Origin: Spirochaetota bacterium
Lineage (GTDB): Bacteria; Spirochaetota; Spirochaetia; CADAEX01
Direction: 5' to 3'
NCBI GenBank assembly: GCA_009786125.1
Contig: WQTU01000139.1
Location: 8,483 to 72,482 of the forward strand
DNA: 64,000 nucleotides
The stretch's first letter is position 1, and the number at the start of each line of letters is the position of its first letter. A program made the position numbers. Of this stretch, positions 48,001-51,000 are shown one piece after another.

Positions 48001-51000
48001 GTAACAGAAGCTTCATCGAGAAAAAGATCTGCGCCAACCAGTTTGTTGGTAGTAAGCTTAAAAAACCCGTCGATCTCTATTCTTGCTCCAAGTTCTTCGA
48101 AAGCCAGAAAATGGGTATCGAGCCTGCGCCTTCCGATTACATCGCCTCCAGGAGGCGGGAATACAGCTTTCCCTGTTCTTGCAAGCAGGGGGCCGGCAAA
48201 CAAAATCGATGCACGTATGGACTTTGCTTCTTCCTGAGGAAGTTCGGATTTTATATCATCGCTTTTTATTGAGTATTCGTTTGATTTAATTTTTGTAACA
48301 GTTGCGCCAAGCTTGGTCGCTATAGAAAGCATGACAGACACATCTTCTATTTCAGGAACATTTTCAAGAATTACTTCGCCGTCCGCAAGAAGCGCTGCGG
48401 CAATACAGGGAAGAGCAGCGTTTTTATTACCACTTGCTTTTATTTTTCCTTTTATGGGGAAAGAGCCATCAATAAAATATTTGCACATATTGGGACTTTA
48501 TATTTTTTAGAATTTATTGTCAACAATGATTTTTTTTATACTGATAATTCCACTACTCCGCCTTGCGGGGTTACTACATTTTCCTGCACCCAATTGCGCC
48601 AGCGAAAAGGGTTTTGGGTTAGTACCTATCAGCTTTAATGAACAAAAAAGAAAAATCTGTTATCTTCAAATGGATTTTCTGCCATATAAATTCTTACAAG
48701 GTAAATTTCTTCGTTTATTATAATATCGGTATCCATATTTTCGGAGGATATTGCTACGCCGCCATTTCGCAGCAGAACTCTCACGTATGTAGTAAAACTG
48801 TACAGACCATCCCGATCTCTTCTAAAAGGGCTTTCATATATTTCGGGAAAAATAAAACTAATCTCGTTACCAGCCGCCAACATTCTGTTTATATCGATTA
48901 AAAATGAGTACTCCCATTTTACAGGGTAAAAAATTCTTTGCATGATTCTTTCCTGCCCGATTCTTGCTGCATTGAGCTTTTCTAAAACAGGCGGAGCAAC
49001 TGCTCTTCTAATAAATCTATCTGTTCGCCTTGCTTCCAGGTGCATCTGTGACTCCCTAAGAAATACACGAAGATCTTTTACTGTATTCACTGTTTTTACA
49101 GATCTAAATCTTTCCCCGTCAAATATATACCAGGTAATGAAAGTCTCAACGCCAAGCCCGTCAACAAATACTTTATTATGGCGCAAGAGATCGATTACTC
49201 CAGTATTGTTGATATCCTCTTTTCTTGTTGAGTCTGACAACGTATTTCTTATGGAAGTTATTGAATATGCCTGTCTTCCTTTTATAACTATATCTTCGTG
49301 TGTGCCGGCGCTTGTTACAAAGGTTGCAGATATTCCGTAAATTTTATTGTTTCTGTCTATCTTCAGTTCTTTTAATGAAGAAAAAGCTCCGGTGCCTTCC
49401 AAAATAATATTTTGCTCATGTATAAATTTTTTTTCATTATTAGTTTCATGATATCTGAATACTGCCAGGATAAATTGCCGCTGATAAATATCACTTCTGT
49501 AGATATTTCGCAGATCGCTTACAACACTTCGCAATATGCCTGAAGTTTCATTCTCCAAAATACTTTCTGCAAACAAAGCAAAAAACTCTGTATGCCCATT
49601 ATTATTAATGTCGCGGGCAACGAAAACAGGCCGTCTGTTATCTATTACAGGCAGGAATCTTTTATTCCCAATCCGTATTTGCTGCCTCATAACGCTGTTA
49701 AAAAAAAGCTGCATTTCTTGCGGAGTAAAGTGGGTCTTGGGGGTTCCCTGCAGTATTTTTTTTTCGCCTTCTCTTCCGGTTTCTTTTTTTTGCTCCGAAG
49801 ATTCCAAAGAAGAGCCGGTTACGCATGAGATAGTTAAAATAATGAGCATAATGCTTATGCTTAATTTGCCGGATATGCTAAATAAGTCAAATATGCTTAA
49901 AAACCGGCGATTTTTTGTTTTATTTTGCAAAAAAACTGTTTTCCCTCTTAAAAAATTCAATTATGGCAACTAATTATAATCAAATTTTAGACTTTTTTCC
50001 ACAATTTTTATATATTAATACAGCAAATTAATATAGCAAAAAATACTTATTTAAACAGAAAAAAAATGATAATTTGTATTTCTGAAAGAAGCGAGAGTCG
50101 CGCCGAAGCCGGACCCGAAGGGGACGTGCTTGCACGGGCATCCGCTGAATAAGTGAGGGTCGCGGGCGTGCTTGCACGCACATGACCGAACGATGAGGTG
50201 GACAAAGAGGCTTTGCCTCTTATGTACCGAGCGAATGAGGAAACAAATGGTCGCGTACGCGTACCCCGCAGCTTTGGCTGCGGAGCATGCGCCGTAGGCG
50301 CAGGGTGTGCAGGGCAAAGCCCTGCGGTATTCGTCGACGAAACGAGAGTTGCGGGCAAGCAAAGCTTGCACATAACCGAGTGAGGAGACGAACACGAGGT
50401 ATAATACCATTTATTTGATTCGTCAATTCTAAAAACATAGGAAAAGTAAATGATTAAAGTACTGAAATTCGGCGGAAGTTCTGTGCAAGATGCTGAAAAA
50501 ATTAAACATGTCTGCTCGATAGTTATCGAAGAAAGCAAAAAATCAAGGGTTGCAGTTGTTTTTTCAGCGATGAAGGGAATCACAGACCTGCTTCTTAATT
50601 CTGCTAAAATTGCCGCAGAAGGAAAAACCAATTATATAGAAAATATTGGTACGCTGCTTTTAAGGCAGGAAAAAGCTGTAAACGAACTTATGAGCGGCAA
50701 TTTTGCACAGGAAGCAATGGCAAGCATAAAAGAGATGATCGAAGAACTTGAAAGTCTTCTTAAAGGAGTTGAGCTTGTAAGAGAGTGTTCTCCAAGAAGC
50801 CTTGATCTTATTGCAAGCTTTGGAGAAAGGCTTAATAACTTTCTTATTGCATCATATCTAAATTCGATTGGGCAAAAAGCTCATTATGTGGATTCACGGG
50901 AAATTATAAAAACAAATAAGCAGTATACGCGGGCTATTGTTTACTACGAAGAAACATATAAAAACATAAAGCAGCGGATTTTCAAGGAAGAAGGGATTCC

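What the first reader, a model, noticed from the sequence alone, without database searches (positions are those of the whole stretch)
50088..50399. A dispersed family of GC-rich modular arrays consists of short hairpins with different stems joined by a degenerate conserved linker
At least 11 intergenic sites carry stretches that are visibly GC-rich against the AT-rich background. The sites are 12101-12260, 28249-28415, 29826-29936, 34455-34535, 35351-35395, 37031-37415, 40816-40885, 43057-43112, 50088-50399, 53311-53512 and 55589-55732.

The arrays are built from units of a linker plus a perfect 5-7-bp hairpin.
- **Linkers:** they recur as approximately (A/T)ACCGA(A/G)(C/T)GA..GAGG and GAG(A/G)GT(C/T)GCGG, with at least 9 copies seen on both strands.
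- **Hairpin stems:** these differ between units while staying perfectly complementary. Examples are GCAAGC/GCTTGC, GCGTGC/GCACGC, GCAAAT/ATTTGC, AGAGGC/GCCTCT, CCGCAGC/GCTGCGG and GCAGGGC/GCCCTGC.

Selection therefore appears to act on the structure rather than on the sequence. Several arrays end next to an A/T-flanked GGTAT(N)ATACC palindrome.

The organisation recalls BIME/REP or pneumococcal BOX mosaic elements, but I do not recognise this family. The arrays could be mobile, could stabilise or terminate RNA, or could be a structured ncRNA family.
Basis: seen in the sequence. Interest (0 to 1): 0.65.

Follow-up and report, generated by a model that had tools for sequence, protein, structure and literature searches.

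The report
Mobile mosaic hairpin repeats in spirochaete
The GC-rich patches are copies of a small, apparently undescribed mobile DNA element built from hairpin modules, whose 72-base core is conserved from termite-gut spirochaetes to rumen Fibrobacter and which can even sit in frame inside protein-coding genes.

Summary
The two "linkers" are the two strands of one conserved irregular helix. They flank a variable hairpin in a ~72-nt module I call X: P1, P2, GAGnGUYGCGG, P3, ACAUGACCGA, P2', P1'.

- **In the window:** a covariance model finds exactly six X copies in five arrays. Other modules accompany them (X2, Z, a GGTAT-N-ATACC hairpin H2, and nested GC hairpins). Five of the eleven listed sites are different GC-rich elements.
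- **Structure:** across about 120 copies P2, P3 and the core helix covary around an invariant G·U pair.
- **Distribution:** X occurs in 39 Fibrobacter-lineage species genomes, in termite-gut Treponema and metagenomes, and as single copies in Clostridia and Paceibacterota. It has no Rfam match and no phage or plasmid match.
- **Host:** the window comes from a Spirochaetaceae organism.
- **Mobility:** four relatives lack X, including at two orthologous sites. Units are bounded by TTTATT.
- **In-frame insertions:** two lie in frame inside genes. One is a 41-aa insert in window ORF 42557-43156. The other is a 47-aa insert splitting a larA homologue.
- **Orientation:** X has no orientation bias relative to flanking genes.

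Best reading: a REP/BIME- and RPE-like non-autonomous mobile element whose transposase is unidentified. Whether the functional fold is single-stranded DNA or RNA is unresolved.

The parts
50137..50207 (+). Module X, copy D: P1 (TCCGC/GTGGA), core GAGGGTCGCGG / ACATGACCGA, P3 GCGTGC-TT-GCACGC.
   Evidence: Covariance model R1, 58.4 bits; fold.
50326..50397 (+). Module X, copy C: P1 TTCGTC/GACGAA. The core has the compensated variant GTT...AAC.
   Evidence: R1, 49.7 bits.
37024..37094 (+). Module X, copy A, starting with TTTATT. P1 is TTGACC/GGTCAA.
   Evidence: R1, 52.3 bits. Absent from the orthologous intergenic region of L112-L115.
43049..43120 (-). Module X, copy B, inside ORF 42557-43156.
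   Evidence: R1, 39.5 bits. In-frame 41-aa insert relative to the L112 orthologue.
53405..53475 (+). Module X, copy E, with a decayed P3.
   Evidence: R1, 38.4 bits.
55625..55696 (-). Module X, copy F: P3 GCAAAT-GTA-ATTTGC.
   Evidence: R1, 52.1 bits.
50075..50415 (+). Whole array at the finding's coordinates. In order: TGTATT, X2 (50093-50148, with a nested GC hairpin), X (D), Z (50204-50240), hairpins a, b, c (50266-50325), X (C), H2 GGTATAATACC (50398-50408), TTTATT (50410-50415).
   Evidence: Hairpins a-c are homologous to the inserts between the H2 arms in L124, L130 and L140. Fold z-score is -3.45 on the + strand and -5.29 on the - strand.
37088..37116 (+). H2 hairpin of unit A: AAAAAAGTATTATAC-AT-ATAATACCTTTT.
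43005..43052 (-). H2 of unit B: split arms GTATTATACC-N16-GGTATAATAC followed by TTTTTAT. TTTTTAT also occurs at 43116-43122.
55549..55737 (-). Array F. In order: TTTATT (55737-55732), X2 (55719-55685), X, Z (55628-55592), H2 pair (55587-55556), TTTTAT.
53304..53512 (+). Array E. In order: TTTATT (53304-53309), an X2-like module with a nested hairpin insert (53317-53404), X, Z (53472-53508). It has no H2.
12101..12260 (-). X2-like module with a roughly 80-nt nested insert in its P3 loop, followed by a truncated X 5' half (GAGAGTCGCGA, 12123-12113). It lies about 30 nt upstream of the hsdM start.
   Evidence: 129 nt at 81% identity to 53317-53432; sequence.
34466..34475 (+). Isolated 5' core fragment GAGTGTCGCG within GC-rich site 34455-34535.
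57478..57504 (.). Solo H2-type palindrome AAATAAATGGTATTATACCATTTATTT between convergent ORFs. It contains no X.

Best explanation
The arrays are copies of a small, non-autonomous mobile DNA element family that is assembled from hairpin modules.

**Anchor module X (~72 nt).** X is an irregular hairpin. A conserved helix sits between variable helices (P1, P2 outside and P3 inside). Its strands are 5' GAGnGUYGCGG and 3' ACAUGACCGA. The predicted helix contains tandem G·A pairs, a bulged base, a 4-bp helix ending in an invariant G·U (G·T), and C·A and G·A mismatches.

**Spirochaete form of the unit.** In spirochaetes the transposing unit reads: TTTATT, X (optionally preceded by X2 and followed by Z), an AT-rich hairpin H2 (GGTAT-N-ATACC), TTTATT.

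**Shown**
- The fold is under selection.
- The units have been inserted in this lineage.
- They are bounded by TTTATT and have no terminal inverted repeats.
- They nest into one another.
- They survive inside genes when they keep the reading frame.
- Their orientation is independent of neighbouring genes.

**Inferred**
- The conserved irregular helix is the cis site that a structure-specific trans-acting enzyme recognises on one strand. The most plausible form is single-stranded DNA, recognised by a HUH/Y1-type (IS200/IS605- or RAYT-like) enzyme that cuts next to TTTATT.
- Arrays grow by adjacent or nested insertion and by tandem duplication.
- Effects on transcripts (stable hairpins, H2 acting as a terminator) are by-products.
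For: **Repeat family and structure**
- Six X copies lie in the window, clearly separated from noise.
- 128 model hits lie in 743 kb of loci. 112 remain after setting aside 16 in loci whose pattern match had no hairpin.
- P3 pairs fell in an unconstrained gap of the search pattern. All five covary and four of them are always paired.
- One P2 pair shows GC 27, CG 26, AU 13, UG 9, UA 6.
- The core helix covaries (UA 106 / CG 12 / AU 3; CG 102 / AU 8 / UG 6 / UA 4) around a G·U present in 121 of 121 copies.
- G·U pairs outnumber A·C mismatches 24 to 4 in the well-aligned helices, so one strand is the folded one.

**Mobility**
- Relatives L112-L115 (75-80% protein identity, 35.6 kb in all) carry no X.
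- The orthologous GH63/radical-SAM intergenic region lacks X and H2 in all four relatives.
- The L112 orthologue of ORF 42557-43156 lacks 41 residues at exactly the position of the unit. It carries a single TTTATT there.
- In L140 the unit splits a larA homologue. Residues 8-131 align to 2YJG residues 3-126, and residues 179-452 to 2YJG 125-400. AATAAAG is present at both junctions.
- TTTATT (or a hexamer one base off) precedes 14 of the 16 spirochaete-type copies; TTTATT or TTTTAT follows H2 in most.
- The same hexamer, or a variant two bases off (TGTATT at 50075), begins all five window arrays.
- An X-H2 unit is nested inside another repeat in L136.
- Short-read contigs break at X.

**Orientation and distribution**
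- In co-directional intergenic regions X is antisense 15 times and sense 10 times.
- Hosts: 39 Fibrobacter-lineage species genomes plus 8 others, and termite-gut metagenomes.
Against: - No transposase has been linked to the element. The one Y1 tnpA next to an X array (L103) has its own left-end hairpin, and its homologues elsewhere lack X.
- X and H2 are unlike each other, whereas the two end hairpins of IS200/IS605 elements resemble each other.
- TTTATT at both ends could be a true target duplication, which HUH/Y1 elements do not make.
- P3 loops are mostly G(CUUG)C (30 of 73 unique hairpins). That loop and the invariant G·U are classic RNA features.
- Three single copies lie on the transcribed strand next to rRNA, tRNA or ribosomal-protein genes.
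- Orientation relative to replication could not be tested.
- Only two empty sites were examined, and the flanks have diverged.
Confidence: 0.62

Rival explanations
1. X is a structured RNA domain: a protein-binding, processing or stability element, or a small RNA or ribozyme. On this reading the arrays are transcribed, the conserved irregular helix works as RNA, and DNA mobility is only the way the RNA element spreads.
For: - The G·U pair is invariant, with covarying Watson-Crick neighbours.
- G·U pairs outnumber A·C mismatches.
- G(CUUG)C dominates the P3 loops.
- Tandem G·A pairs are predicted.
- Single copies lie on the same strand upstream of 23S rRNA (L007, L057), between a tRNA and rpmG (L008), and in the rpsP leader (L037).
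- In the window, every X is in sense orientation to at least one adjacent gene.
Against: - There is no orientation bias in co-directional intergenic regions (15 antisense, 10 sense).
- X occurs antisense inside larA.
- There is no Rfam match even at E <= 10.
- The window cases are in divergent or convergent regions, where either orientation is 'sense' to some gene.
- G·T and G·A pairs are also stable in DNA hairpins (established knowledge).
Confidence: 0.2
2. The elements are recombination sites of the integron attC type, or another tyrosine-recombinase hairpin site. They would fold as single-stranded DNA with an R box (P1), an unpaired spacer, an L box with an extrahelical base (the core) and a variable terminal stem (P3).
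For: - The architecture is similar: about 70 nt, a variable apical stem, a bulged base and strand-specific folding.
- Spirochaete P1 sequences (GGCTAAC, GGTTAAC) loosely resemble RYYYAAC.
- Treponema is known to carry chromosomal integrons (my own knowledge, not checked here).
Against: - There are no cassette ORFs between copies.
- Copies occur in both orientations among housekeeping genes.
- Fibrobacter has tandem arrays without ORFs.
- In attC sites the R box is the conserved part, whereas here the inner helix is conserved and P1 varies or is absent.
- No integrase gene was seen next to any copy.
Confidence: 0.04
3. The patches are ordinary, independently evolved GC-rich terminator or attenuator hairpins whose resemblance is superficial.
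For: - H2 with its A and T flanks looks like a bidirectional terminator.
- A solo H2 fills the gap between two convergent genes.
Against: - A 21-nt core is conserved in more than 100 copies across phyla, with covarying stems.
- Copies occur upstream of genes and inside genes.
- Motif counts are far above the shuffled expectation.
Confidence: 0.02

Closest known systems
REP / BIME elements of Enterobacteria and Pseudomonas (with RAYT transposases; REPINs)
   Same: - Short GC-rich imperfect palindromes in many copies.
- Clustered into mosaics with other motifs.
- Found in either orientation relative to genes.
- Conserved irregularities in the stem, with a strand-specific fold.
   Different: - The module is longer (~72 nt) and has three helices.
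- There is no conserved GTAG or CGTC head.
- The core sequence is conserved across phyla, whereas REPs are lineage-specific.
- Arrays are mostly direct rather than alternating.
- Copies also occur inside genes.
- No RAYT gene was found next to copies.
Rickettsia palindromic elements (RPE)
   Same: - Palindromic repeats of about 100-150 bp that are tolerated as in-frame insertions in conserved protein-coding genes.
- Two cases were seen here: 41 aa and 47 aa.
   Different: - The host lineages are unrelated. I recall no sequence resemblance and did not test it.
- Most copies here are intergenic and form arrays.
- The units are bounded by TTTATT.
IS200/IS605-derived miniature elements (PATEs) and the HUH/Y1 single-strand transposition mechanism
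   Same: - No terminal inverted repeats.
- Subterminal hairpins at both ends.
- A fixed short sequence immediately 5' of the left end.
- Structure-specific, strand-specific conservation.
- In some copies AATAA(A), complementary to TTTATT, lies at the foot of X.
   Different: - The left and right hairpins (X and H2) are unlike each other.
- The same hexamer is found at both ends, which could be a target duplication.
- No cognate Y1 gene was identified.
- No replication-strand bias was demonstrated.
Pneumococcal BOX elements
   Same: Modular (boxA-boxB-boxC) mosaic repeats with strong predicted secondary structure and an unknown mobilising enzyme.
   Different: - The modules and hosts differ.
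- To my knowledge BOX elements are not known for cross-phylum conservation or in-frame insertions.
- Similarity was not tested here.
Integron attC sites
   Same: About 60-140 nt, folded as a single strand, with a variable apical stem and extrahelical bases.
   Different: There are no cassettes, no integrase and no conserved R boxes. Here the conserved part is the inner helix.

Membership tests
REP/BIME (RAYT-associated) | Imperfect palindrome of 20-40 nt, high copy number, extragenic. | tested here: inconclusive
   X is a high-copy imperfect palindrome. It is about 72 nt long with three helices, and it is sometimes intragenic.
REP/BIME (RAYT-associated) | Conserved GTAG (or CGTC) tetranucleotide at the head of the palindrome. 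| tested here: not met
   The segment 5' of P2 varies (GTAG, GTAA, CTAA, GCAA, AGGA and others) in alignment A1. The conserved sequence lies inside the helix.
REP/BIME (RAYT-associated) | A RAYT (Y1 HUH) gene flanked by the repeats. | tested here: inconclusive
   One Y1 tnpA lies next to an X array (L103). It has its own left-end hairpin, and homologous copies lack X. Whole genomes were not available.
Classical MITE | Terminal inverted repeats. | tested here: not met
   The left end (TTTATT-GACGAACGG... or TCCGAATAAAGC...) and the right end (...AAGGGTATAATACCC-TTTATT) are not inverted copies of each other.
Classical MITE | Target-site duplication flanking the element. | tested here: inconclusive
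   - TTTATT is found at both ends.
- The related empty site has a single TTTATT.
- AATAAAG is found at both junctions in larA.
- This could instead be a fixed target plus a similar element end.
IS200/IS605-type miniature element (PATE) | Subterminal hairpins at both ends, no inverted repeats, insertion 3' of a fixed short target. | tested here: inconclusive
   The geometry fits, but the two hairpins differ from each other.
IS200/IS605-type miniature element (PATE) | Orientation bias with respect to replication (lagging-strand template). | not testable with these tools
   Only fragments of genomes are held. Within the window the sites are 3 on the + strand and 2 on the - strand.
Rickettsia palindromic elements | In-frame insertion into conserved protein-coding genes. 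| tested here: met
   A 41-aa insert relative to the L112 orthologue. A 47-aa insert relative to LarA structure 2YJG.
Rickettsia palindromic elements | Sequence homology to RPE families. | not tested
   No RPE library was available. The hosts are unrelated.
Integron attC | R''/R' boxes (RYYYAAC / GTTRRRY), cassette ORFs between sites, an adjacent intI gene. | tested here: not met
   - No ORFs lie between copies.
- Copies occur in both orientations.
- P1 is variable or absent.
- No integrase gene is nearby.
Any Rfam 15 RNA family | Match to a covariance model. | tested here: not met
   - No hit at the gathering threshold in the window or in 12 loci.
- Nothing relevant at E <= 10 over the array.
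- Nothing for the other GC-rich sites.

The most novel reading that the evidence does not exclude
Module X is not just a passive transposase-binding hairpin. It would be an active structured nucleic acid. One form would be a new self-processing or guide-like RNA or ssDNA motif that directs cleavage next to TTTATT. The other would be the ligand of a widely conserved, still unrecognised structure-specific nuclease or recombinase shared by Fibrobacter, spirochaetes, Clostridia and Paceibacterota. Under the first form, the invariant G·U and the tandem G·A pairs would be catalytic or recognition elements.
Probability: 0.12. Interest if true: 0.85.

Novelty: new variant of a known kind. Interest (0 to 1): 0.66.

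Why it matters
- It would add a new, widely distributed family to the small set of bacterial hairpin repeat elements (REP/BIME, BOX, RPE, Correia). The hosts are rumen Fibrobacter and termite-gut spirochaetes, where mobile-element biology is little studied.
- The 21-nt irregular helix is conserved across phyla and flanked by freely covarying stems. This gives an unusually clean handle for finding the enzyme that moves such elements.
- In-frame insertions into larA and into a secreted protein show that the element reshapes proteins as well as intergenic DNA.
- In practice these repeats break short-read assemblies and create false ORF extensions in metagenome-assembled genomes. A model for them improves annotation.

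Tried and rejected
1. **Known RNA families.** Rfam gave nothing at the gathering and E-value thresholds. By eye I saw resemblances to the hairpin ribozyme, Y RNA, 5S rRNA and group II intron domain V. These were not supported and I dropped them.
2. **IS200/IS605 link.** A Y1 tnpA lies 120 nt from an X array in L103. It has its own left-end hairpin, and three homologous loci have no X.
3. **P1 copied from the target.** Units A and L057 suggested that the 5' strand of P1 comes from the target. This was rejected once ten metagenomic copies showed TTTATTGACG... to be the element's own end, and that P1 can be absent.
4. **Sense-strand mRNA element.** Rejected because orientation counts show no bias.
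5. **Phage or plasmid carriage.** There were no hits.
6. **Strain polymorphism.** Exact-protein look-ups returned only the same strain, with contigs broken at X.
7. **Literature.** Searches on Fibrobacter or Treponema repeats, RAYT/REPIN and the F. succinogenes S85 genome paper with its supplements found no description.
8. **Loop types.** I tried using P3 loop types to decide between DNA and RNA. The result is ambiguous.
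Full report

The listed patches are 52-66% GC in a window that averages about 38%. GAGnGTYGCGG with at most one mismatch occurs 13 times, against 2.3 expected, and no shuffle reached 13. GGTATnATACC occurs 4 times, against 0.02 expected.

Self-BLAST of the eleven sites shows that six are related to one another on both strands: 12101, 37031, 43057, 50088, 53311 and 55589. Site 34455 carries only a fragment of the motif.

Sites 28249, 29826, 35351, 37120-37415 and 40816 show no similarity to the family. Two other small repeat families are visible among them:
- 37233-37263 resembles 40813-40843.
- GAAGGTTCCCCnCCGG occurs at 28287 and 29917.

**2. Anatomy**

I scanned one genome per species with a pattern that fixed only the two "linkers" and left 12-18 free bases between them. 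In about 90 of them the free segment is a hairpin, and the flanks pair as well.

So the two linkers are the 5' and 3' strands of one irregular helix. I call the resulting ~72-nt module X. It reads: P1 (5-7 bp), a junction, P2 (3-4 bp), GAGnGUYGCGG, the P3 hairpin, ACAUGACCGA, P2', a junction, P1'.

Minimum-energy folds repeatedly give the same core:
- tandem G·A pairs;
- a G-C pair;
- a bulged, variable base;
- a 4-bp helix GUCG/UGAC ending in G·U;
- a C·A mismatch, a G-C pair and a G·A mismatch below P3.

On 83 unique copies all five P3 pairs covary and four of them are always paired. The most variable P2 pair shows GC 27, CG 26, AU 13, UG 9, UA 6. Sliding the partner columns by one to three positions drops pairing from 81.5% to 28-35%.

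A covariance model (R1) finds exactly six copies in the window at 38-58 bits, with the next best hit at 10 bits. It finds 128 hits in 743 kb of fetched loci, 16 of them in loci whose pattern match had no hairpin. The lower-scoring true copies show that the core helix itself covaries:
- one pair is UA 106, CG 12, AU 3;
- another is CG 102, AU 8, UG 6, UA 4;
- another is GC 112, AU 9.

The G·U pair, in contrast, is present in 121 of 121 copies. In the well-aligned helices G·U outnumbers A·C 24 to 4, so the fold belongs to one strand. P3 loops are mostly G(CUUG)C, in 30 of 73 unique hairpins.

**3. The window's arrays**

Each array starts, in element orientation, with TTTATT. The exception is 50075, which reads TGTATT.

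| Array | Strand | Content, in element order |
|---|---|---|
| 37024-37116 | + | X, H2 |
| 43120-43005 | - | X, split H2 |
| 50075-50415 | + | X2 (a core variant the model does not detect, with a nested hairpin), X, Z, three GC hairpins a-c, X, H2, TTTATT |
| 53304-53512 | + | X2-like module with a nested insert, X, Z |
| 55737-55549 | - | X2, X, Z, H2 pair |
| 12101-12260 | - | X2-like module with a nested insert, then a truncated X |

Both strands of the 50075-50415 array fold better than shuffled sequences, with z = -3.45 and -5.29.

**4. Host and distribution**

The window is part of a 181-kb metagenome contig. Its YgiQ protein is 78% identical to one from a Spirochaetaceae MAG. The closest contigs come from termite-gut samples.

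True X copies were found in:
- 39 species-level Fibrobacter, Fibrobacteraceae or Fibrobacterales genomes;
- two termite Treponema MAGs;
- a "Bacteroidales" termite MAG;
- a termite Bacillota MAG;
- a Clostridia bacterium;
- a Sedimentibacter MAG;
- two Paceibacterota MAGs.

Binning errors cannot be excluded for the single-copy hosts.

A second scan, for X followed by H2, found ten true copies. Contig names I recognise as termite-gut datasets account for several of them (ABDH01, Ga0099364).

There is no Rfam match and no phage or plasmid match. I found no description in the searchable literature.

**5. Evidence that it is mobile DNA**

- **Relatives lack X.** Four relatives at 75-80% protein identity (L112-L115, 35.6 kb in total) contain no X.
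- **First empty site.** In L113 the orthologous GH63/radical-SAM intergenic region is 209 nt of AT-rich sequence. In the window it is 620 nt and carries X-H2 plus another GC-rich element.
- **Second empty site.** The L112 orthologue of ORF 42557-43156 aligns end to end except for 41 residues. Those residues are exactly X plus H2 (123 nt, with no stop codon). L112 has a single TTTATT at that point, and the window has TTTTTAT on both sides.
- **Insertion in larA.** In termite metagenome contig L140 the unit lies antisense inside a larA homologue. Residues 8-131 align to residues 3-126 of LarA structure 2YJG. Residues 179-452 align to residues 125-400. AATAAAG is present at both junctions.
- **Conserved boundaries.** Across 16 spirochaete-type copies the unit is TTTATT, X, H2, (C)TTTATT, with unique flanks outside it and no terminal inverted repeats.
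- **Nesting.** Units nest. Hairpins a-c sit between the H2 arms in L124, L130 and L140, as they do in the window. An X-H2 unit interrupts another repeat in L136.
- **Assembly breaks.** Short-read assemblies of the same strain break at X.

**6. RNA or DNA?**

In Fibrobacter co-directional intergenic regions X is antisense 15 times and sense 10 times. Together with the antisense copy inside larA, this argues against a host-selected sense-strand RNA role.

The strand-specific fold, the fixed flanking hexamer, the end hairpins and the absence of inverted repeats resemble single-strand (HUH/Y1) transposition. In some copies AATAA(A), complementary to TTTATT, lies at the foot of X, which recalls guide-target pairing in IS200/IS605. 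That last comparison rests on my own knowledge of the family.

The link is not established:
- The only Y1 gene found near X is an unrelated IS200-like copy.
- X and H2 differ from each other.
- The G(CUUG)C loops and the invariant G·U are equally at home in RNA.
- Some single copies lie on the transcribed strand next to rRNA, tRNA or ribosomal-protein genes.

I therefore commit to [quoted passage not shown] at about 0.6. Within that, I rate single-stranded DNA recognition by a HUH-type enzyme at about 0.3. A primarily RNA-level function stands at about 0.2.

**7. Comparison and verdict**

The element works like REP/BIME (mosaic arrays, either orientation) and like RPE (in-frame insertions). 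It fails the REP membership test for a GTAG or CGTC head and the MITE test for inverted repeats. It has no attC features.

It is best filed as a new variant of the known kind "small structured non-autonomous repeat elements". Two things make it unusual: its core is conserved across phyla, and its stems covary freely around an invariant wobble pair.

Noticed in passing
window 42557-43156 (-), insert at about 43005-43127: The X-H2 unit (123 nt, 41 codons, no stop) lies in frame in the signal-peptide region of a conserved 156-aa-type protein. The gene caller reads straight through it and reports 199 aa.
   Followed up: yes
L140 427-1794 (-) (ABDH01037839.1): A larA (lactate racemase) homologue is split by a 47-aa in-frame insert. 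The insert is an antisense X-H2 unit with hairpins a-c. The flanking residues are contiguous with PDB entry 2YJG.
   Followed up: yes
window 57478-57504: A solo H2-type palindrome, AAATAAATGGTATTATACCATTTATTT, fills the 15-nt gap between convergent ORFs 56644-57483 and 57499-58692. It is probably a bidirectional terminator. Its sequence is shared with the H2 ends of the mobile units.
   Followed up: partly
window 37233-37389 and 40813-40843; L136 1586-1632 and 1818-1892: A second GC-rich repeat, which I call V, is 80-90% identical between the window and a termite metagenome contig. In that contig an X-H2 unit is nested inside it. It has no Rfam match and its nature is unknown.
   Followed up: partly
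window 28249-28415 and 29826-29936: A third GC-rich element type shares GAAGGTTCCCCnCCGG (at 28287 and 29917). Both copies lie just downstream of genes. It is not related to X and has no Rfam match.
   Followed up: partly
window 3585-3673 and 4552-4640: An 89-nt direct repeat (85% identity, 967 nt apart) lies at the 5' end of the 1076-aa ORF, near the type I restriction-modification methylase gene hsdM. It could be a duplicated gene start or a shuffling site.
   Followed up: no
L103 2-214 (-); L105, L107, L108: IS200/IS605 Y1 tnpA genes share a left-end hairpin, CTGCACTTTCAGTGCAG. In three loci the ORF stops at an in-frame TAG after 105-112 codons, and coding potential continues beyond it.
   Followed up: partly
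L057 6040-6180; L008 5850-6620 (-): In a Paceibacterota MAG, X lies about 40 nt upstream of the 23S rRNA and is flanked by a perfect 23-nt direct repeat. In a Treponema MAG, X lies between a tRNA and rpmG, inside a diverged duplication of about 95 nt that includes the tRNA 3' end.
   Followed up: partly
L124 2519-4015 (-); window 12101-12260: In L124 an X array replaces the C-terminal part of an hsdM gene: the N6_Mtase profile match ends at position 235 of 311. In the window an array sits about 30 nt upstream of hsdM. This may be coincidence.
   Followed up: no
window 15946-20226 (-): A 1426-aa FtsK/EccC-like ATPase (weak matches to type VII secretion EccC/EssC models) in a spirochaete contig.
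   Followed up: no
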